Positions 3,203-51,568 of a stretch of 64,000 nt of DNA are shown here, in pieces. Each line of letters starts with the position of its first letter. Position 1 is the stretch's first letter. The translations under genes and the position numbers were made by a program. The stretch spans positions 857 to 64,856 of the forward strand of contig JAJCZR010000065.1 of the NCBI GenBank assembly GCA_029262295.1, in the 5' to 3' direction. Below the pieces are notes generated by a model. It made no database searches, had not been told where the DNA came from, and worked only from the letters and a program-made list of their open reading frames with translations. Origin of the DNA: Deltaproteobacteria bacterium. Its GTDB lineage: Bacteria > Desulfobacterota_D > UBA1144 > Nemesobacterales > Nemesobacteraceae.

Positions 3203-3230
3203 CGTCATTCTGAACTTGTTTCAGCATCTA
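3203..3230 (+). repeat. YGTC-tagged REP-like hairpin repeat
   Basis: CGTC-ATTCTGAA-CTTGT-TTCAGCAT-CTA; near-identical to 51335-51361. Confidence 0.85.
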
Positions 3231-22198: not shown

Positions 22199-22377
22199 CT
22201 TCATTCTGAACTTGTTTCAAAATCTATACTTAATGTCATACTCGAATGCTTAAACCTGTGCTGAGCAAAGTCGAAGTATCGGGTATCCATTCTTTTAAAT
22301 ATTATAGATTCCCGCTAGAGAATTGCGAGAATGACATTTTGGTTAATCTAGTTACTCTGAACTCATTTCAGAATCTA
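22199..22377. repeat. cluster of four YGTC-tagged REP-like repeats, one carrying a nested 24-bp element
   Basis: Copies at 22199-22226 (+), 22234-22289 (+, insert CCTGTGCTGAGCAAAGTCGAAGTA at 22255-22278), 22305-22336 (-) and 22350-22377 (+). Confidence 0.85.
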
Positions 22378-24483: not shown

Positions 24484-25579
24484 ATGAGTAAAGATTTTCA
24501 TGATAAACCTTTTGATGATGCAACTAAAACTAAACTTGAGCTTTATCAAAAATATGTTGAAGAGTGGTTACCAGTATTCATAAAATATAAGATTAAAAAT
24601 ATCAATATTTTCGATTTTTTTTTGCGGTCCAGGTCTAGATAGTAAAAACAATTTTGGAAGCCCTCTTTTAGCCATTGAAACAATCAAATCATTTGAAGAG
24701 CTTGTTATTAAAGAGAATTTAAAAATAAATCTTTACCTAAATGATAATAAGAGAGACAAAACAAGCAATTTACTCAGATTATTGCATTCAAGAAAAACAG
24801 ATAAGATTGAATATTTGAACATTAATGTTACAAATCATAAGTTCGAATATATTTTTGATAAATATTATTCACAAATTATGAATCGGAGATATTCTGCAAA
24901 TTTAATATTTATAGACCAAACTGGAATAAAACATGTTACAAGTGATAGATTCTTAAAAATTATGAATTTAAATAGAACAGACTTTCTTTTTTTTATTTCA
25001 TCTTCAGCAATTAAAAGATTTATTAAAGAAGAAGGATTTAGAAATCATTTTGGTAATATTTCACAAGAGATAAGAAAAACTAATCCAAACAACATACACA
25101 GAGAAGTTGCGAAATTTTATAGAAGTTTAATTCCTAAAAATACCGAGATGCATTTAATCCCATTTACTTTAAAAAAAGGTAAAAATTACTACGGACTAAT
25201 TTTTGCAACAAAACACATACGTGGAGCAGAGAAATTCCTGAAAGTATGTTGGGATAAAGATAAAATAACAGGAGATGCTAACTTTGATATTGATAATTCC
25301 AAAATTGATTTAGATAAACCCGCATTATTTGATGAAATGAACAAATCCACTAAATTAAATGAATTTGAAAAAGAATTAAGAGGAAAAATTCTCGAAAAAA
25401 ATTTAAAAACTAATGTTGAAATTTTTAAATTTACAATATCAAATGCTTTTTTAGCAGAACATGCAAGAGAAGTCATTAGAATCCTAAAAAAGGATAAATT
25501 AATAGAAAAAAAAGTTAATATATCTTATGATTCTTGCATAAAGAAAAAGAAGGAAGAAAAAATAAATGTCCTCAAATAG
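24484..25579 (+). pseudogene. tcmP: three-Cys-motif partner protein TcmP (SAM-binding methyltransferase-like), frameshifted at a T9 tract
   Basis: ATG 24484 gives MSKDFHDKPFDDATKTKLELYQKYVEEWLPVF...IFDFF. T9 lies at 24615-24623; T8 would give DFFCGPG...GSPL in frame with ORF 24782..25579 (FIDQTG, GLIFATKH), 364 aa. Confidence 0.82.
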
Positions 25580-26312
25580 CAAAATAGAATGGACTGAAGC
25601 AACTTGGAATCCAGTAACAGGTTGCAATAAAGTAAGTCAAGGTTGCAAATTCTGTTATGCAGAAAGGCTAGCCTATCGTTTAAAGAGAATGGGGAATATT
25701 CGTTACAGAAATGAATTTGAAGTTACTCTTCACAATGATCTCACAGAATTGCCTATTAAATGGAAAAAACCCAGAATAATTTTTGTGAATTCAATGAGCG
25801 ATTTATTCCACGAGAAAGTACCTTTGGAATTTATTCAAAAAGTTTTTAAGACAATGGAAAAAACTCCACAGCATATCTATCAAATACTTACAAAACGAAG
25901 TTCTAGATTGAAAGAGCTCTCACCTGAACTTAAATGGCCTCATAATGTCTGGATGGGAGTTAGCGTTGAAGACATGAGAGTTGTAAATAGAATTTCTGAT
26001 CTTTTAGAAGTTAATGCTTTCGTAAAATTCCTTTCACTTGAACCTTTAATTGGACCACTGGATTCATTACAACTAAACGGAATTAATTGGGTAATTGTTG
26101 GTGGAGAATCAGGCCCAGGATCTAGACCAATGAAAAAAAGTTGGGTCGAATCTATTCTATCGCAATGTAAAGATGCAGAAGTACCTTTCTTTTTTAAACA
26201 ATGGGGTGGGGTTCGAAAAGATTTAACTGGTAGAAAACTTAATGGAAGGACATATGATGAAATGCCTTCTACAAATAATGACAACCAATTACTATTAGCA
26301 AGTAGCTATTAA
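25566..26312 (+). CDS. DUF5131 / phage Gp37-Gp68 family three-Cys radical-SAM-like protein
   Basis: [47 protein letters not shown]. Confidence 0.93.
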
Positions 26313-26352: not shown

Positions 26353-28071
26353 ATGAGAATCTTACAAAACATTTTTATTCTTTTTCTTATTTTTACTTTC
26401 TCAATCCAATCTTCAAACTCAGTAGAACCCCTAGACTTCCCCAACTCCATCCACAAACCTATAATAGCTCAAAACGGAATGGTTGTTTCTGAAGATAGTT
26501 ATGCAACCAAAGCAGGATTGGAAGTATTGAAAGAAGGTGGGAATGCGGTGGATGCAGCAGTGACAATGGGATTTGTGATGGCTGTGACATTTCCAAGAGC
26601 AGGAAATCTTGGCGGCGGTGGCTTCATGATGGTTCTTAATAAAGAATCTGATGAGATTATTGCAATTGATTACAGGGAAAAAGCTCCGAAAGCTGCAACA
26701 AAAGATTTATTCTTGGATGAAACTGGAAATGTAGATAAAGAAAAATCTCGGCACAGCATCTATTCAGCAGGTGTTCCGGGAACAGTTGCTGGTTTGGCAC
26801 TTGCACTCGAGAAGTACGGCACTATAACGCTTAAAGAAGCATTAGAGCCTGCAATTAGGCTTGCAAAGAAAGGTTTTCCCGTCTCTTATGAATTCAGAGA
26901 ATCACTTAAAGATTCAAAAGAGTATATGAAGAGGTCTTCTGAGAGCCTTTCCAATTACTATAAAGAAGATGGAAGTAATTTTGAAGTTGGTGAAGTTTTA
27001 AAACAAAAAAACCTAGCATGGAGTTTAAAACAGATAAAAAAACATGGCCCAAAAACATTTTATGAAGGAAAGGTTGCCGACAAAATTGTAGATTTTATGG
27101 AAGCTGAAAATGGCTTAATAACAAAAGATGATCTCAAATCCTATGAACCAAAGACTAGAAAACCAATAACTGGAAGTTATAAAGGTTATGAGATTTACTC
27201 AATTCCCCCTCCAAGCTCTGGCGGAGTACATATTATCCAGATGCTGAATATCCTTGAGCAGTTTCCTTTAAACACCTACGGACATAACTCTGCTGATTAT
27301 ATCCATCTTGTTTCAGAAGTAATGAAACTTGCATATGCCGACAGATCAAAATATCTTGGGGATCCTGATTTTGTGGATGTCCCAATTAAAGAACTAACTT
27401 CAAAAGAGTATGCCAAAAAACTTTCAAAAAAAATTAAGCTCAAAAAGGCAACTCCATCAAAGAAAATAAAACCTGGAAAGATTATCTCTGAAGGACCGAG
27501 CACAACTCATTTCTCAGTGATGGATAAATATGGAAATGTAGTTTCAAACACATATACGCTTAATTTTTCTTACGGCTCAAAAATATCTGTTCCAGGCACT
27601 GGAATACTCTTAAATAACGAGATGGATGACTTTTCAGCAAAAGCCGGAGTACCAAATGCTTATGGATTGATTGGCGGCGAGTTCAACTCTATTGAACCTG
27701 AGAAAAGAATGCTTAGCTCAATGAGCCCCACCATTGTTTTAAAAGACGGAAAACCTTTTCTTGCAACAGGAAGCCCGGGAGGTAGCAGGATTATCACTAC
27801 TGTTTTACAAATTATCTTAAATACTGCAACTAATGATATGAATATTTCTGAGGCCACTCATGCCCCAAGATTTCATCATCAATGGTTTCCCGACAAGCTC
27901 TTTGTCGAAAACGGGATAAGTAAAGACACACTTAATATTCTAGAGAAAAGAGGACACAAAATAGAGAAGAACAGAACTATAGGTAGTGCTCAAAGTATTG
28001 TTAAAATTGGTAATTACTTTTACGGATCAACTGACCCGAGAAGGCCGGGCGGCCTTGCTGACGGGTATTAA
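26353..28071 (+). CDS. ggt: gamma-glutamyltransferase
   Basis: Signal peptide, GGNAVDAA, IDYRE, STTHFSV nucleophile, NNEMDDF, SSMSP, GSPGG. Confidence 0.96.
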   Translation: MRILQNIFILFLIFTFSIQSSNSVEPLDFPNSIHKPIIAQNGMVVSEDSYATKAGLEVLKEGGNAVDAAVTMGFVMAVTFPRAGNLGGGGFMMVLNKESDEIIAIDYREKAPKAATKDLFLDETGNVDKEKSRHSIYSAGVPGTVAGLALALEKYGTITLKEALEPAIRLAKKGFPVSYEFRESLKDSKEYMKRSSESLSNYYKEDGSNFEVGEVLKQKNLAWSLKQIKKHGPKTFYEGKVADKIVDFMEAENGLITKDDLKSYEPKTRKPITGSYKGYEIYSIPPPSSGGVHIIQMLNILEQFPLNTYGHNSADYIHLVSEVMKLAYADRSKYLGDPDFVDVPIKELTSKEYAKKLSKKIKLKKATPSKKIKPGKIISEGPSTTHFSVMDKYGNVVSNTYTLNFSYGSKISVPGTGILLNNEMDDFSAKAGVPNAYGLIGGEFNSIEPEKRMLSSMSPTIVLKDGKPFLATGSPGGSRIITTVLQIILNTATNDMNISEATHAPRFHHQWFPDKLFVENGISKDTLNILEKRGHKIEKNRTIGSAQSIVKIGNYFYGSTDPRRPGGLADGY

Positions 28072-28078
28072 AAATAGT

Positions 28079-28444
28079 TGTCATTCCAAACTTGATTTGG
28101 AATCCAGTATATTGGGAAAAAGCAATGAAGTCCTATTTTATATATATTATAGCAAGTAAAAAGAACGGGACTATCTATATAGGCGTTACTAATGATTTGA
28201 TAAAAAGAGTTTACCAACATAAGAATGACTTGGTAGAAGGATTCTCAAAGAAATATAAAACACACAACCTTGTTTATTATGAGGTATGTAGTGAGATAAA
28301 TTCTGCAATTAAAAGAGAAAAAACTATAAAAGCTTGGAAAAGAAAATGGAAAGTAGATTTAATTGAGAGTAAAAATAATGGTTGGAGAGATTTGTATAAA
28401 AACCTTATCTGAATCCTAGATTCCAAATCAAGTTTGGAATGACA
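28079..28444. mobile_element. putative REPtron-like unit: GIY-YIG gene bounded by 29-bp inverted hairpin repeats
   Basis: Left end TGTCATTCCAAACTTGATTTGGAATCCAG (28079-28107); right end CTAGATTCCAAATCAAGTTTGGAATGACA (28416-28444); 28/29 reverse-complement identity. Mobility is inferred. Confidence 0.6.
28125..28412 (+). CDS. small GIY-YIG nuclease family protein (95 aa)
   Basis: YFIYIIASKKNGTIYIGVTNDLIKRVYQHK, LVYYE, AIKREKTIKAWKRKWK. ATG 28125 preferred because the TTG at 28092 lies inside the repeat. Confidence 0.92.
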   Translation: MKSYFIYIIASKKNGTIYIGVTNDLIKRVYQHKNDLVEGFSKKYKTHNLVYYEVCSEINSAIKREKTIKAWKRKWKVDLIESKNNGWRDLYKNLI

Positions 28445-28488
28445 GGAAAAAATGAATTTTTAATTGTGATTTTAAGTGACTTTTTATT

Positions 28489-28539
28489 TGGATGCCTTAT
28501 TACTTCGACAAGCTCATCACAGGCAAGTACGGAATGACA
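28489..28539 (-). repeat. REP-like hairpin with a 23-bp element nested in its loop
   Basis: Minus strand: TGTC-ATTCCGTA-CTTG-[CCTGTGATGAGCTTGTCGAAGTA]-A-TAAGGCAT-CCA. Confidence 0.8.
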
Positions 28540-28544
28540 AACTT

Positions 28545-29501
28545 TCAATCCAAAGCAGATATCTCAAGCATCCTATCAATAGAAAGTTTGGCTTTATGTG
28601 CAATATTTTCAGGCACTTTTACTTCATAGATCTCTTCCTGAAGTGATCTTAAAACCTTTTCGATTGTTATCATTTTCATATACTCACAAACCGCATTTTC
28701 ACTTGCAGGATAGAATTTTTTAGTAGGATTATCTTTTCTGAGACTGTGAAGCATTCCCGTCTCAGTTGCAATAATAAACTCATCGGAATCTGATTCTTCT
28801 GCAAATTTTCTCATGCCACCTGTCGAAAGAAACTTTATGTCAGCAGTGGATTTTTCATCTTTAATGCTGTGATACAGAAATGAAGTAGTACAGCCACATT
28901 CAGGATGGACAACCATCTCAGCCTTGGGGCGTTCATCACGCATTTTCTGTATATCTTTTGGTCTGATACCAGCGTGAACATGACACTCACCCGGCCAAAG
29001 ATGCATCTTTCTTCCTGTTTTTTTTGCAACATAAGATCCAAGGAACATGTCGGGAAGAAAAAGAATCTCCTTATCTTCAGGTATTGCATTTACTACCTTT
29101 ATTGCATTTGAAGATGTAACGCAGTAATCAGTCTCAGACTTTACCTCTGCCGTTGTATTCACGTAAGAAACTACCACTGCTCCCGGATGTTCGTCTTTCC
29201 ATTCTTTTAGTTGTTTTAAATTTATTGTGTCTGCAAGAGAACAACCGGCATCTGTATCTGGAATTAACACTTTTTTATGGGGTGAAATAATTGAAGCGGT
29301 TTCGGCCATGAAATGCACGCCGCAAAATACAATTATATCTGCATCAGTTTCAGCCGCCTGTTGGGAAAGTCCAAGAGAATCGCCCGTATAATCAGCAATA
29401 TCCTGCACTTCTCCTATCTGGTAGTTATGTGCAAGAATCACAGCATTCTTCTCTTTTCTGAGACGATTTATTTCTTCATTTATGGCTTTTAGATTACTCA
29501 T
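28545..29501 (-). CDS. nadA: quinolinate synthase
   Basis: LAHNYQ, FCGVHFMAE, AGCSLA, HPEC, CEYMK. Confidence 0.96.
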   Translation of the reverse strand: MSNLKAINEEINRLRKEKNAVILAHNYQIGEVQDIADYTGDSLGLSQQAAETDADIIVFCGVHFMAETASIISPHKKVLIPDTDAGCSLADTINLKQLKEWKDEHPGAVVVSYVNTTAEVKSETDYCVTSSNAIKVVNAIPEDKEILFLPDMFLGSYVAKKTGRKMHLWPGECHVHAGIRPKDIQKMRDERPKAEMVVHPECGCTTSFLYHSIKDEKSTADIKFLSTGGMRKFAEESDSDEFIIATETGMLHSLRKDNPTKKFYPASENAVCEYMKMITIEKVLRSLQEEIYEVKVPENIAHKAKLSIDRMLEISALD

Positions 29502-51334: not shown

Positions 51335-51538
51335 CGTCATTCTGAACTTGTTTCAGAATCTTTTTATATGTCATCCCAGACTTGATCTGGGATCCAGAAT
51401 GTTGACTAGAAATATAAATACATCCCTGGATTAACTAGATTGCTACAAAACTAAGTGTTAGCTAATAAATCATTCTTTCTCACCACTCTGGATTCCGGCT
51501 CGAAGGCCGGAATGACCCTTCGACAAGCTCAGGGCAGG
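51335..51538. repeat. cluster of YGTC-tagged REP-like repeats plus a 23-bp mini-element
   Basis: Copies at 51335-51361 (+), 51369-51397 (+) and 51488-51516 (-); CCCTTCGACAAGCTCAGGGCAGG at 51516-51538. Confidence 0.85.
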
Positions 51539-51568
51539 CTCTTTGCATCATGAATTTTAACCCATAGT

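What the first reader, a model, noticed from the sequence alone, without database searches (positions are those of the whole stretch)
28079..28444. Minimal GIY-YIG nuclease gene bracketed by inverted hairpin repeats: candidate new REP-mobilising element
Seen: a 366-bp unit consisting of TGTC-ATTCCAAA-CTTGA-TTTGGAAT-CCAG, 17 bp, a 95-aa GIY-YIG ORF, 3 bp, and the reverse complement of the same repeat (28/29 identical, 26 bp perfect). It starts 8 bp after the ggt stop, between convergent ggt and nadA. The two ends match each other far better than any other copy in the window, and gene-less inverted doublets of the same family occur at 22234-22336 and 51369-51516. Known: GTAG REPs flank HUH RAYT transposases in this architecture (REPtrons/REPINs), whereas CGTC/TGTC-tagged REPs have no established mobiliser to my knowledge; GIY-YIG enzymes include structure-specific nickases such as SLX1. 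Inference: this GIY-YIG subfamily is the cognate hairpin-recognising enzyme that spreads or maintains these repeats, making this an autonomous element with non-autonomous derivatives.
Basis: partly seen in the sequence, partly recalled or inferred. Interest (0 to 1): 0.88.

Follow-up and report, generated by a model that had tools for sequence, protein, structure and literature searches.

The report
Ssn hairpin nuclease gene with repeats
This is a small nuclease gene sitting between two inverted copies of the DNA hairpin that enzymes of its family cut, a pairing first described in 2025, so it is a real but already known kind of element.

Summary
The association is not chance. All 5 paralogues in the 2.2-Mb genome are flanked this way. 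Of 76 homologous loci from many phyla, 54 carry outward GTCA-tagged hairpins on both sides, against 2 of 274 control windows per strand.

It is not new. Chenal et al. 2025 (PMC11893778) described this system: the Ssn family of ~94-aa single-domain GIY-YIG enzymes that bind CGTC/TGTC-tagged hairpins (NTS/SRM) as ssDNA and cut just upstream. They noted the IS-like NTS-ssnA-NTS architecture and the RAYT/REP analogy.

Mobilisation by the enzyme is unproven. This genome gives circumstantial support:
- relatives have an empty, abutting ggt|nadA junction;
- homology between two ssn units stops at the tags;
- there is an internally deleted ssn relic;
- a 95%-identical gene-less doublet sits at two unrelated sites.

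The local hairpins have A/T-rich inner stems and escape the published SRM search pattern.

Verdict: new member of a known kind.

The parts
28079..28107 (+). Left SRM-type hairpin repeat (TGTC tag, 8-bp stem ATTCCAAA/TTTGGAAT, loop CTTGA, tail CCAG), with the tag pointing away from the gene
   Evidence: folds as ssDNA at -5.8 kcal/mol, z=-2.5
28108..28124 (+). 17-nt leader between the hairpin and the start codon. It is not conserved in the paralogous unit on C68.
28125..28412 (+). ssn-like gene: a 95-aa single-domain GIY-YIG nuclease (Tyr7, Tyr18, Arg28, His32, Glu65 invariant in 36 homologues)
   Evidence: AF2 pLDDT 93.4; Foldseek hits to UPF0213 BH0048, Slx1 and UvrC N-domain
28416..28444 (-). 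Right SRM-type hairpin, an inverted copy of the left one (28/29), tag pointing away from the gene
28490..28540 (-). Degenerate third tagged element (TTGTCATTCC...GGCATCC) with a long loop that holds a TTCGACAAGCTCA-type insert. It does not fold well. In a related population the 99 nt at 28446-28544 are replaced by 16 nt.
   Evidence: I2; X5 record 29
26353..28071 (+). ggt (gamma-glutamyltranspeptidase), the upstream neighbour; its stop lies 7 nt before the unit
28545..29501 (-). nadA (quinolinate synthase), the convergent downstream neighbour
51370..51516 (.). Gene-less inverted doublet (two tagged hairpins with different inner stems, 98-nt spacer). It is one of 12 copies of a ~145-bp family in the genome.
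51336..51362 (+). Single tagged hairpin of the CTGAA/TTCAG class (tail CTT) next to the doublet
22234..22336 (.). Inverted pair of longer, imperfect tagged hairpins about 20 nt apart
3204..3230 (+). Single tagged hairpin (GTCATTCTGAA...TTCAGCATCTA)

Best explanation
The unit is an ssn-SRM module. It comprises a member of the Ssn family of single-domain GIY-YIG site-specific single-stranded-DNA endonucleases, bracketed by two inverted copies of its presumptive recognition hairpin. That hairpin is an Ssn-related motif, which is the same thing as a CGTC/TGTC-tagged REP.

Mechanism, inferred by homology with the four enzymes assayed in PMC11893778 and not shown here:
- The protein binds the hairpin only when the DNA is single-stranded, and only on the strand that reads 5'-TGTC-stem-loop-stem-C.
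- The C right after the palindrome matters most for binding. The GTC just before it matters most for cleavage.
- With Mg2+ the enzyme nicks a few nucleotides 5' of the tag.
- Because the two hairpins are inverted with tags outward, the predicted nicks fall just outside the unit, one on each strand: about 28075-28078 on the top strand and just beyond 28444 on the bottom strand.

Shown here:
- The pairing of gene and hairpins is specific and general.
- The hairpin stems are under structural constraint.
- The genome carries about 80-140 such hairpins, three ssn lineages each with its own hairpin class, decayed ssn copies and gene-less doublets.
- The module occupies a site that is empty in relatives.

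My reading is that the module is a REPtron-like selfish or domesticated nuclease/hairpin pair. A GIY-YIG enzyme only hydrolyses DNA, so I judge that any spread of the hairpins and hairpin-bounded segments goes through nick-stimulated repair or gene conversion by host recombination, not transposase-type strand transfer. I give the identity and biochemistry about 0.85-0.9 and the claim that Ssn drives spread about 0.35.
For: Family.
- Pfam GIY-YIG, E=2.2e-16, as the only domain of a 95-aa protein.
- AF2 model with pLDDT 93.4. Its best PDB fold matches are the small UPF0213 GIY-YIG protein 1zg2, Slx1 and the UvrC N-domain.
- Tyr7, Tyr18 and Glu65 are invariant in 36 homologues. They sit exactly one residue further along than the Y6, Y17 and E64 whose mutation abolishes Nm SsnA cleavage.
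- The length matches: Nm SsnA is 94 aa.

Repeat.
- T-GTC tag, AT at the stem foot, 8-bp stem, 5-nt loop, C after the palindrome and a CCAG tail. These fit the NTS layout CGTCATTCCC...GGGAATCYRG and Di Nocera's CGTC REPs.

Bridge to the published family.
- A homologue 60% identical, in relative G024, is flanked by exact matches to the published NTS consensus; there are 10-11 in its 3.3-kb locus.
- 13 of 76 homologous loci carry the NTS consensus (up to 1 mismatch) on at least one side.

Association.
- 5 of 5 own paralogues are flanked by outward tagged hairpins.
- Of 76 loci with complete flanks (80 fetched, many phyla, 52-66% identity): 59 upstream, 63 downstream, 54 both and 68 at least one. 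In the wrong orientation the counts are 11 and 17. Control windows 700 or 1100 nt away give 2 of 274 per strand.
- The hairpins sit mostly 8-36 nt before the start and 5-30 nt after the match end.
- The two hairpins of one gene are more alike (normalised edit distance 0.156) than permuted partners (mean 0.259, minimum 0.232 over 300 permutations).

Genome level.
- 81 hairpins were picked by tag, foot and tail alone, against 2 in a shuffled genome. Watson-Crick pairing holds at five variable stem positions in 73-79 of 81, against shuffle means of 24-66.
- The same pattern gives 84 hits against 0 for the reversed-pattern control. Among 30 relatives the counts are 55, 13 and 5 in the three that have ssn, 0-4 in 26 that lack it, and 24 in G019.

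Past mobility.
- ggt and nadA abut or overlap in G001, G004, G005 and G026, and lie 8 and 33 nt apart in G023 and G021.
- Homology between the C65 and C68 units stops at the tags.
- C4:44013-44261 is an internally deleted ssn relic between two copies of the same hairpin (z=10.8-12.9).
- The doublets at C35:21924 and C68:109626 are 95% identical with unrelated flanks.
Against: - No direct comparison with N. meningitidis SsnA or CDD cd10448 was possible with these tools, so family membership rests on proxies.
- The window's two hairpins do not match the paper's degenerate SRM search pattern, because the inner stem is A/T-rich. That pattern finds only 14 sites in this genome (2 in a shuffle) and only 8 of the 315 candidate GTCA-tagged hairpins with a stem of 6 bp or more, a loose set that a shuffled genome nearly equals (295). 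The NTS consensus finds 0.
- The paper reports that changing the palindrome sequence while keeping the structure abolished Nm SsnA activity. Cleavage of these divergent stems by this protein is therefore an extrapolation.
- No protein/repeat co-variation among 49 close homologues (rho 0.067; 202 of 999 permutations as high).
- G019 has 24 pattern hits but no detectable ssn, even with a profile.
- Counted by tag alone, GTC-tagged hairpins are not enriched (263 against a median of 325 over all 64 three-letter tags). With stems of 6 bp or more the A/T-rich genome gives as many in a shuffle (315 against 295). The family stands out only by tag plus foot plus tail.
- No sigma-70-like promoter was found upstream of the ORF.

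Against the spread sub-claim:
- GIY-YIG nucleases have no known strand-transfer chemistry (my knowledge).
- No target-site duplication is visible at the unit or doublet ends.
- A related population (about 85-90% identity) has the ssn 3' end and right hairpin joined to nadA at the same place, so the insertion is old and stable (record 29).
- The 97-nt spacers of the 12 common doublets show no similarity to the ssn unit interior.
- 2 of 5 own copies are frameshifted.
Confidence: 0.85

Rival explanations
1. One reading: the 366-bp unit is an autonomous transposon. The GIY-YIG protein is itself the transposase that excises and inserts hairpin-bounded DNA, and the gene-less doublets are its non-autonomous MITEs, exactly as RAYTs are thought to serve REPINs.
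For: - IS-like architecture, with inverted ends tightly abutting the ORF.
- Relatives have an empty ggt|nadA junction.
- The two ssn units share homology only between the tags.
- There is a deletion relic between intact hairpins.
- A 95%-identical doublet sits at two unrelated loci, with homology ending 2-5 nt outside the tags, close to where Ssn homologues cut.
- Distribution is patchy: 0 of 18 sister-genus genomes, yet 52-66% identity to proteins in many phyla.
- The authors of PMC11893778 raise the same analogy.
Against: - GIY-YIG enzymes hydrolyse DNA and are not known to form covalent intermediates or join strands (my knowledge). The paper shows cleavage only.
- The two predicted nicks lie on opposite strands, unlike IS200/IS605 single-strand excision (inference).
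- No target-site duplication or conserved target is visible.
- The doublet spacers are unrelated to the ssn unit.
- The position is stable in a diverged relative.
- No paper in the library reports transposition.
Confidence: 0.12
2. [quoted passage not shown] As in Neisseria meningitidis, it trims incoming or replicating ssDNA that carries the hairpins. The flanking hairpins merely regulate or mark the gene, and the repeats spread by other means.
For: - SsnA lowers integration of NTS-bearing transforming DNA in N. meningitidis (PMC11893778 abstract and discussion).
- The module sits at the same place in a population diverged by about 10-15%.
- Hairpins lie 17 nt before the start codon, where they could affect expression.
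- A non-ssn gene (cytochrome c-like, C2:3639-4861) also lies between outward hairpins, the NTS-gene-NTS layout.
Against: - 2 of 5 copies are frameshifted and one is a deletion relic, which looks like decay rather than a maintained host function.
- Five to six copies from three lineages sit in a 2.2-Mb genome.
- The gene was not found in 18 of 18 sister-genus genomes.
- Natural competence of this organism is unknown.
- This reading does not explain how discrete doublets reach new sites.
Confidence: 0.3
3. The hairpins are RNA-level elements (terminators or mRNA stabilisers) at convergent gene ends, and the small gene merely tends to land in such permissive intergenic spots.
For: - The unit lies between convergent genes.
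- Di Nocera et al. found CGTC and GTAG REPs mainly downstream of ORFs and proposed RNA roles (abstract).
- Strong stem covariation fits any hairpin function.
Against: - No terminator-like site: the hairpins lack a T-run (0 found).
- Orientation is strictly tags-outward around the gene (59 and 63 of 76, against 11 and 17 in the wrong orientation).
- Control windows in the same loci are empty (2 of 274).
- Nm SsnA does not bind the RNA form.
Confidence: 0.03

Closest known systems
Ssn nucleases with NTS/SRM hairpin repeats (SsnA NMV_0044/NMB0047 of Neisseria meningitidis; CDD cd10448 GIY-YIG_unchar_3; Chenal et al. 2025, PMC11893778)
   Same: A single-domain GIY-YIG protein of about 94-95 aa with the same spacing of the two Tyr and the Glu. 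The gene is bracketed by inverted (C/T)GTC-AT...-C hairpins with tags outward. The genome carries tens to hundreds of the same hairpins. Relatives 56-63% identical carry the exact NTS consensus.
   Different: The inner stem is A/T-rich (ATTCCAAA, loop CTTGA), so the hairpins fail the published SRM pattern and the NTS consensus. One small genome holds three ssn lineages with three hairpin classes. Biochemistry is untested here, and direct similarity to Nm SsnA was not measurable with these tools.
CGTC-tagged REPs (families CGTC-1 to -4; dRS3, RPE-4/6) of Di Nocera, De Gregorio and Rocco 2013 (PMC3733652)
   Same: Tag CGTC, often TGTC. Stems of 8-9 bp starting with AT. Loops of 4-5 nt. Tail CCA. 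Mostly head-to-head dimers. Stems heterogeneous within a family.
   Different: That survey found no dedicated enzyme. Here, and in the 2025 paper, the enzyme gene sits between two of the repeats. The host is a low-GC uncultured bacterium rather than an alphaproteobacterium or a Neisseria.
REPtrons: RAYT (HUH/Y1 IS200/IS605-like) genes flanked by GTAG REPs, with REPIN doublets
   Same: A single small nuclease gene bracketed by inverted copies of the genome's own hairpin repeat. Gene-less inverted doublets with a spacer. Recognition of ssDNA hairpins plus an unpaired tag.
   Different: A different fold and chemistry (GIY-YIG hydrolase, not an HUH tyrosine recombinase). A different tag (GTC, not GTAG). 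Several ssn copies per genome, some decayed, whereas RAYTs are described as single-copy (abstract of 10.1101/2022.05.22.493013, seen in the listing).
UPF0213 small GIY-YIG proteins (BH0048 1zg2, EF2693 1ywl; E. coli YhbQ by recall)
   Same: The nearest solved structures by sequence profile (E=5.4e-6 and 1.4e-4) and by fold. The size is similar.
   Different: Only about 22% identity. The one UPF0213-like paralogue examined (G024:1003944, 36% identity to the query) has no flanking tagged hairpins.
GIY-YIG homing endonucleases (I-TevI type)
   Same: A GIY-YIG catalytic core. A selfish-element lifestyle in which a nuclease break is repaired by host recombination, which is my preferred route for any spread.
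   Different: Those enzymes have a separate DNA-binding domain and cut dsDNA at intron-less alleles. Here there are only 95 aa, and NCBIfam TIGR01453 scores 22.5 bits against a cut-off of 56.

Membership tests
Ssn nuclease family (cd10448) | Single-domain GIY-YIG protein of about 94 aa with no extra DNA-binding domain | tested here: met
   95 aa; PF01541 covers residues 4-76. The AF2 model is one compact beta-beta-alpha-alpha-beta-alpha-alpha domain, pLDDT 93.4. GIY-YIG fold matches in PDB.
Ssn nuclease family (cd10448) | Catalytic Tyr (GIY), Tyr (YIG) and metal-site Glu, as mutated in Nm SsnA (Y6, Y17, E64) | tested here: met
   Y7, Y18 and E65 are invariant in 36 homologues. All three are offset by +1 from the published residues.
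Ssn nuclease family (cd10448) | Assignment to CDD cd10448, or blast E<1e-10 to Nm SsnA (the paper's operational criteria) | not testable with these tools
   No CDD search and no Neisseria sequence were obtainable. Proxy: 60% identity to a homologue flanked by exact NTS-consensus repeats. Pfam and NCBIfam have no Ssn-specific model. No solved Ssn structure exists.
Ssn nuclease family (cd10448) | Gene flanked on both sides by inverted hairpin repeats of the SRM type | tested here: met
   Also 5 of 5 own paralogues and 54 of 76 homologous loci.
Ssn nuclease family (cd10448) | Binds its hairpin as ssDNA only and cuts a few nt upstream; no activity on dsDNA, RNA or the reverse strand | not testable with these tools
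   This needs purified protein. It has been shown for four homologues in PMC11893778.
SRM / NTS repeat | Match to the published degenerate pattern HGTCWYN(0-2)YYVSBRHN(0-5)WNVSBRGN(0-2)RNCYNB | tested here: not met
   The window's hairpin does not match. The pattern gives 14 hits in the genome against 2 in a shuffle. The NTS consensus gives 0 hits. The misfit lies in the S/B/R positions of the inner stem, which are A/T here.
SRM / NTS repeat | Functional determinants mapped in the paper: H-GTC just 5' of the palindrome, a hairpin-forming palindrome, C right after it, tail CYNB | tested here: met
   T-GTC, an 8-bp perfect stem, then C-CAG (left) and C-TAG (right).
CGTC-tagged REP super-family (Di Nocera 2013) | CGTC/TGTC tag, 8-9-bp stem starting AT, 4-5-nt loop, CCA tail, mostly head-to-head dimers, high copy number | tested here: met
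   81 copies of the 8/5 geometry; the base before GTC is T in 62 and C in 9. Tails CCA 69 and CTA 52. 34 of 53 neighbouring pairs have tags outward.
REPtron (RAYT + GTAG REPs) | HUH/Y1 tyrosine transposase of the IS200/IS605 type and GTAG-tagged REPs | tested here: not met
   The protein is GIY-YIG with no Y1_Tnp hit. The tag is GTC, not GTAG.
Autonomous insertion sequence / transposon | Terminal inverted repeats, an encoded transposase, target-site duplication, copies at unrelated sites, empty sites | tested here: inconclusive
   Inverted ends: yes. Copies with homology ending at the ends: yes. Empty site in relatives: yes. Target-site duplication: none seen. Transposase chemistry: not known for GIY-YIG. 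No insertion polymorphism was recovered.
GIY-YIG homing endonuclease (group I intron endonuclease, TIGR01453) | GIY-YIG domain plus linker and DNA-binding domain; score above the family cut-off | tested here: not met
   22.5 bits against a cut-off of 56.05, matching profile positions 3-37 of 215 only.

The most novel reading that the evidence does not exclude
The SRM-ssn-SRM module is an active mobile element of a new mechanistic type. A 95-aa GIY-YIG ssDNA nickase marks hairpin-bounded segments, and host repair then copies them (and swaps individual hairpins) into other hairpin sites. On this reading Ssn would be the long-missing mobiliser of CGTC/TGTC-tagged REPs (dRS3, RPE, NTS). This genome, with three ssn lineages, three hairpin classes, a deletion relic and a freshly duplicated doublet, would show the whole life cycle. 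The hairpin swap seen between two otherwise 95%-identical doublets (2 compensated stem pairs plus 2 loop bases changed in 21 nt, about 5 changes in the other 120 nt) would be a footprint of that repair.
Probability: 0.3. Interest if true: 0.75.

Novelty: new member of a known kind. Interest (0 to 1): 0.3.

Why it matters
The pairing itself matters because CGTC/TGTC-tagged hairpins (Neisseria dRS3/NTS, Rickettsia RPE-4/6, many alphaproteobacterial REPs) were for years repeats without an enzyme. That gap was closed in print in 2025, so this window does not open the question.

This case adds four things.
- The system extends to A/T-rich stems that the published search pattern misses. Surveys based on that pattern therefore undercount carriers.
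- One small genome can hold several ssn lineages, each next to its own hairpin class. That gives a natural test bed for specificity.
- The genome preserves intermediates that bear on the one question still open, whether Ssn drives the spread of the repeats. These are intact units, frameshifted units, an internally deleted relic, a discrete doublet family with one recent duplication, and an empty site in relatives.
- Ssn enzymes are also being developed as ssDNA tools, so variants that recognise different stems have practical interest.

Tried and rejected
- Literature: 'GIY-YIG' with 'repetitive extragenic palindromic' found 0 papers. The Ssn paper came from 'GIY-YIG' plus 'CGTC'. Searches for follow-up work on SsnA, Ssn or NTS, and on GIY-YIG with hairpin and transposon terms, found no report of mobilisation. 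Supplements of PMC11893778 (lists of homologues and SRM counts) were closed, so I could not check whether this lineage is already listed there.
- PDB by sequence: nothing for the single protein. A profile gave only UPF0213, UvrC and Slx1.
- NCBIfam: only a sub-threshold intron-endonuclease hit.
- Counting hairpins by 3-nt tag alone was uninformative in this A/T-rich genome, as was a stem cut-off of 6 bp (315 against 295 in a shuffle).
- My first geometry pattern was off by one stem base and found 3 sites. It was corrected.
- Doublet spacers against the ssn unit interior: no similarity; most z below 2, maximum 3.5, across 72 comparisons.
- Protein against repeat distance: no correlation.
- Sequencing runs: 5 listed from 2 studies, all kept as contigs, and no RNA holder listed. 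Laying X1, X2, X3 and X5 gave contigs broken at the repeats and no contig joining ggt directly to nadA. No empty-site allele was recovered, and contigs cannot show absence. The joint 28107->28383 has a 28-nt side and probably comes from another hairpin copy.
- Promoter and terminator scan: no promoter-like site upstream of the ORF on the + strand and no terminator. It is a consensus scan only.
- align_proteins failed once because L024 has an in-frame stop. I dropped L024 and re-ran.
- I did not determine the organism's name. The scan of genome contigs leaves the window's own record out, and I made no attempt to trace samples or studies.
- Complex prediction, the search of protein representatives, the search for homologous proteins, the listing of cluster members and the protein-atlas search were not used. 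Nothing in the verdict depended on them.
Full report
**1. The observation**

- ggt ends at 28071.
- Seven bases later comes TGTC-ATTCCAAA-CTTGA-TTTGGAAT-CCAG (28079-28107).
- Then 17 nt, then an ATG-initiated 95-codon ORF (28125-28412).
- Then 3 nt and the reverse complement of the repeat (28416-28444), identical at 28 of 29 positions.

The repeat finder reports 32-nt arms that are 94% complementary. The 21-nt core occurs twice in the window at up to 3 mismatches and never in 100 shuffles. As single-stranded DNA each copy folds into the 8-bp/5-nt hairpin. The ORF is a GIY-YIG domain and nothing else (PF01541, E=2.2e-16). The neighbours are gamma-glutamyltranspeptidase and, convergent, quinolinate synthase NadA, followed by nadC- and nadB-like genes.

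**2. Is the gene-hairpin pairing more than chance?**

The window is C65:857-64856 of a 2.2-Mb, 83-contig, 35.6% G+C assembly. The assembly has five matches to the protein. In all five, the DNA just before the start and just after the stop carries GTCA-tagged hairpins with the tags pointing outward. Three pass my strict scan (perfect stem of at least 7 bp directly after GTC; spacings 316, 317 and 337 nt). The other two have longer, imperfect hairpins that I read by eye.

Counting by tag alone is uninformative in this A/T-rich genome. GTC-tagged hairpins number 263, against a median of 325 over all 64 tags. Stems of at least 6 bp are as common in a shuffled genome (315 against 295).

The family is sharp once tag, stem foot and tail are required. 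GTCAT.C-4-5-4-G.ATC[CT][AT] gives 81 sites against 2 in a shuffle. The slightly wider pattern gives 84 against 0 for its reversed control. These 81 were chosen without regard to inner pairing, yet 73-79 of 81 are Watson-Crick at each of five variable stem positions (shuffle means 24-66). Up to four pair types occur per position. The hairpin is therefore under structural constraint.

**3. Elsewhere**

Among 30 relatives, three have the gene and 0 of 18 genomes of the sister genus do.

In the three carriers the gene is again bracketed by tagged hairpins. In G024 these read exactly as the Neisseria consensus. A weaker, UPF0213-like GIY-YIG match in G024 has none (one case only).

A scan of 185,579 species genomes with a 6-sequence alignment found at least 597 confirmed relatives. 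I received the best 80, at 52-66% identity. They come from Saccharibacteria, Planctomycetes, Dehalococcoidia, Nitrospirae, Cyanobacteria, Leptospiraceae, many Proteobacteria and others. Results for the 76 with complete 150-nt flanks:

| Position | Outward tagged hairpin | Wrong orientation |
|---|---|---|
| Upstream | 59 | 11 |
| Downstream | 63 | 17 |
| Both sides | 54 | - |
| At least one side | 68 | - |

Control windows 700 or 1100 nt away in the same loci gave 2 of 274 per strand.

The hairpins hug the gene: mostly 8-36 nt before the start and 5-30 nt after the match. The two hairpins of one gene resemble each other more than hairpins of different genes do (0.156 against 0.259 normalised edit distance; none of 300 permutations below 0.232; 10 of 55 pairs identical). 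These 80 loci are the closest relatives of this one protein, not a random sample of GIY-YIG genes.

**4. What it is**

A search for 'GIY-YIG' plus 'CGTC' led to Chenal et al., Nat Commun 2025 (PMC11893778). I read its abstract, passages and sections 7, 8, 10, 12 and 17. The paper makes these points:
- It defines the Ssn family as single-domain GIY-YIG proteins. Nm SsnA is 94 aa and falls in CDD cd10448.
- Ssn genes are spatially associated across phyla with hairpin repeats. These are the NTS (CGTCATTCCCGCGMAVGCGGGAATCYRG) and, more loosely, SRMs.
- 71% of homologues have at least one SRM nearby and 42% have one on both sides.
- Nm SsnA and three homologues bind the hairpin only as ssDNA and only on one strand, and cut a few nucleotides upstream.
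- The three bases before the palindrome govern cleavage. The C after it governs binding. Y6A, Y17A and E64A kill cleavage.
- The discussion states that NTS-ssnA-NTS looks like an insertion sequence and draws the RAYT/REP parallel.

Di Nocera et al. 2013 (PMC3733652; abstract, passages and section 6) had defined the same repeats as CGTC-tagged REPs. Their features are a tag that is often TGTC, 8-9-bp stems starting with AT, 4-5-nt loops, a CCA tail and head-to-head dimers. That paper concluded that they 'apparently lack a dedicated transposase'.

The window's unit fits both descriptions:
- Y7, Y18 and E65 are invariant in 36 homologues and offset by exactly one residue from the published catalytic residues.
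- The AF2 model is confident (pLDDT 93.4) and has a GIY-YIG fold.
- The hairpin has the T-GTC tag, the AT foot, the post-palindrome C and the CCAG tail.

I could not run the paper's own membership criteria (cd10448, blast to Nm SsnA). The bridge is indirect. Homologues 56-63% identical to this protein are flanked by the NTS consensus itself (13 of 76 loci at up to 1 mismatch), and G024's locus holds 10-11 exact copies.

**5. What differs here**

The inner stems are A/T-rich. The window's hairpins fail the published SRM pattern. That pattern finds only 14 sites in the genome, and the NTS consensus finds none. A census built on those patterns would score this genome as nearly repeat-free.

The five paralogues fall into three lineages:

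| Lineage | Within-lineage identity | Flanking hairpin class |
|---|---|---|
| C65 and C68 | 85% | ATTCC..., tail CCAG |
| C78 and C5:28766 | 75% | A[CT]TCT...GAAGA.T, tail CTA |
| C5:6923 | single copy (42-60% to the others) | ATCCTGAA..., tail CTA |

That is co-variation at depth, but n=3. Among 49 close homologues from other genomes, protein distance and hairpin distance do not correlate (rho 0.067). There the variation lies in the inner stem and loop, which seem free to change.

**6. Signs of past mobility**

(a) In relatives, ggt and nadA are convergent and overlap or abut. The gap between matches is 2 nt in G001, G004 and G005 of the sister genus and in G026. It is 8 nt in G023 and 33 nt in G021. 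Reading the DNA confirms it, with stop codons overlapping on opposite strands. Twelve sister-genus genomes instead carry a 2.0-2.4-kb insert there. In G010 that insert is a GDSL-lipase autotransporter. In G000 the 479-nt gap is filled by the ssn unit plus a degenerate third hairpin.

(b) The C65 and C68 units share homology only between the tags. Inside, the left hairpins are identical, while the 17-nt leader and the inner stem of the right hairpin differ.

(c) C4:44013-44261 carries the same hairpin at both ends. Between them lies a degenerate, internally deleted ssn whose 96-nt 3' part aligns at z=10.8-12.9. This is one gene-less doublet that demonstrably derives from a gene-bearing unit.

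(d) Twelve ~145-bp doublets share a recognisable 97-nt spacer. Two of them (C35:21924 and C68:109626) are 95% identical across the spacer and right hairpin. Their flanks are unrelated, and homology ends 2-5 nt outside the tags. Their left hairpins differ by two compensated stem pairs and two loop bases. That looks like replacement of a hairpin as a block rather than point mutation.

(e) Hairpin abundance tracks the gene. Pattern counts are 84, 55, 13 and 5 in the four ssn carriers and 0-4 in 26 non-carriers. The exception is G019, with 24 hits and no ssn even by profile search.

Evidence against recent activity:
- 2 of the 5 own copies are frameshifted.
- 2 of the 80 foreign copies have in-frame stops.
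- No target-site duplication is visible.
- The common doublet spacer is unrelated to the ssn unit.
- A contig from a related population (about 85-90% identity, another study) joins the ssn 3' end and right hairpin to nadA at the same place. It differs only in lacking the 99 nt that hold the third hairpin.

**7. Mechanism**

Shown here: the specific, oriented pairing; the structural constraint on the hairpin; and the insertion-like distribution.

Taken from the paper for homologues: ssDNA-only, strand-specific binding and upstream nicking.

Inferred for this unit: nicks just outside each tag on opposite strands.

Inferred, and my preferred reading of the biology: a hydrolytic GIY-YIG nickase cannot join strands. 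Spread and hairpin swapping, if Ssn-driven, would therefore go through host repair of nicks made in transiently single-stranded DNA, with other hairpin copies as templates. This resembles homing more than transposition. The alternative, demonstrated in Neisseria, is a host-level role in limiting recombination of hairpin-bearing ssDNA. The two readings are not exclusive.

**8. Verdict**

This is a new, A/T-rich-stem member in an uncultured low-GC bacterium. It comes with a useful set of decay and duplication intermediates. The mobilisation question remains open both here and in the literature I could search.

Noticed in passing
window 28446-28544 (and C68:120666-120716, C4:17698-17745, C33:7774-7821 of the genome): Some tagged hairpins carry a 25-30-nt insert of the TTCGACAAGCTCAG..CAGGC type inside the loop, in either orientation. 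The same motif lies just beside the doublet at window 51517-51545. Long-loop hairpins also flank ssn homologues in other phyla (for example L049, L054, L090). The nature of this nested repeat is unexplained. The paper notes that loop extensions do not block cleavage.
   Followed up: partly
L007/L009 = G024:C1:1388542-1391814: Two identical ssn copies lie about 1.27 kb apart. Between them are five tandem 110-nt units, each made of one exact NTS plus the first ~40 nt of ssn, truncated at the YTG motif. Arrays of partial GGGAATGAC pieces lie downstream.
   Followed up: no
G019 (same order, 1 contig, 99% complete): 24 hits to the tagged-hairpin pattern (reversed control 2) but no ssn, even with a 36-sequence profile. 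These are orphan hairpins without the enzyme.
   Followed up: partly
G000:C68:120328-120603 and G000:C5:28766-28990: Two of the five ssn paralogues look inactivated or mis-assembled. The C68 copy has one extra base just after the ATG, so the GIY tyrosine frame has no in-frame start. The C5 copy shifts frame in an A-run, cutting off the last ~20 residues.
   Followed up: partly
G000:C2:3639-4861 (locus L103): A 270-aa secreted cytochrome c-like gene (PF00034) lies between two outward-facing tagged hairpins 1171 nt apart. This is the NTS-gene-NTS layout that the Neisseria paper links to transformation control. It may be chance.
   Followed up: partly
window 24782-26312: An overlapping gene pair just upstream of ggt: a 265-aa protein with a GMT-like wHTH domain (PF22560, E=4e-7) and a DUF5131 protein (PF07505, E=4e-99; also a weak GP88 hit). 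By recall this resembles the phage Gp37/Gp68-type DUF5131 with its partner protein.
   Followed up: no
ggt|nadA junction in sister-genus genomes (for example L098 = G010:C1:1542700-1545000): Twelve of 18 sister-genus genomes have a 2.0-2.4-kb insert between convergent ggt and nadA. In G010 it encodes a GDSL-lipase autotransporter. Three others have the genes overlapping. The junction has been hit by different insertions in different lineages.
   Followed up: partly
G000 doublets of other classes (for example C24:16690-16807, C26:685-761, C17:576-650): A second doublet type pairs TGTCATACCTGAATG... with TGTCATTCCGT.ATG... hairpins (9-nt loops, tail CTA) about 20 nt apart. No ssn paralogue with this hairpin class at its ends was seen, though one such doublet sits right beside the C68 ssn unit.
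   Followed up: no
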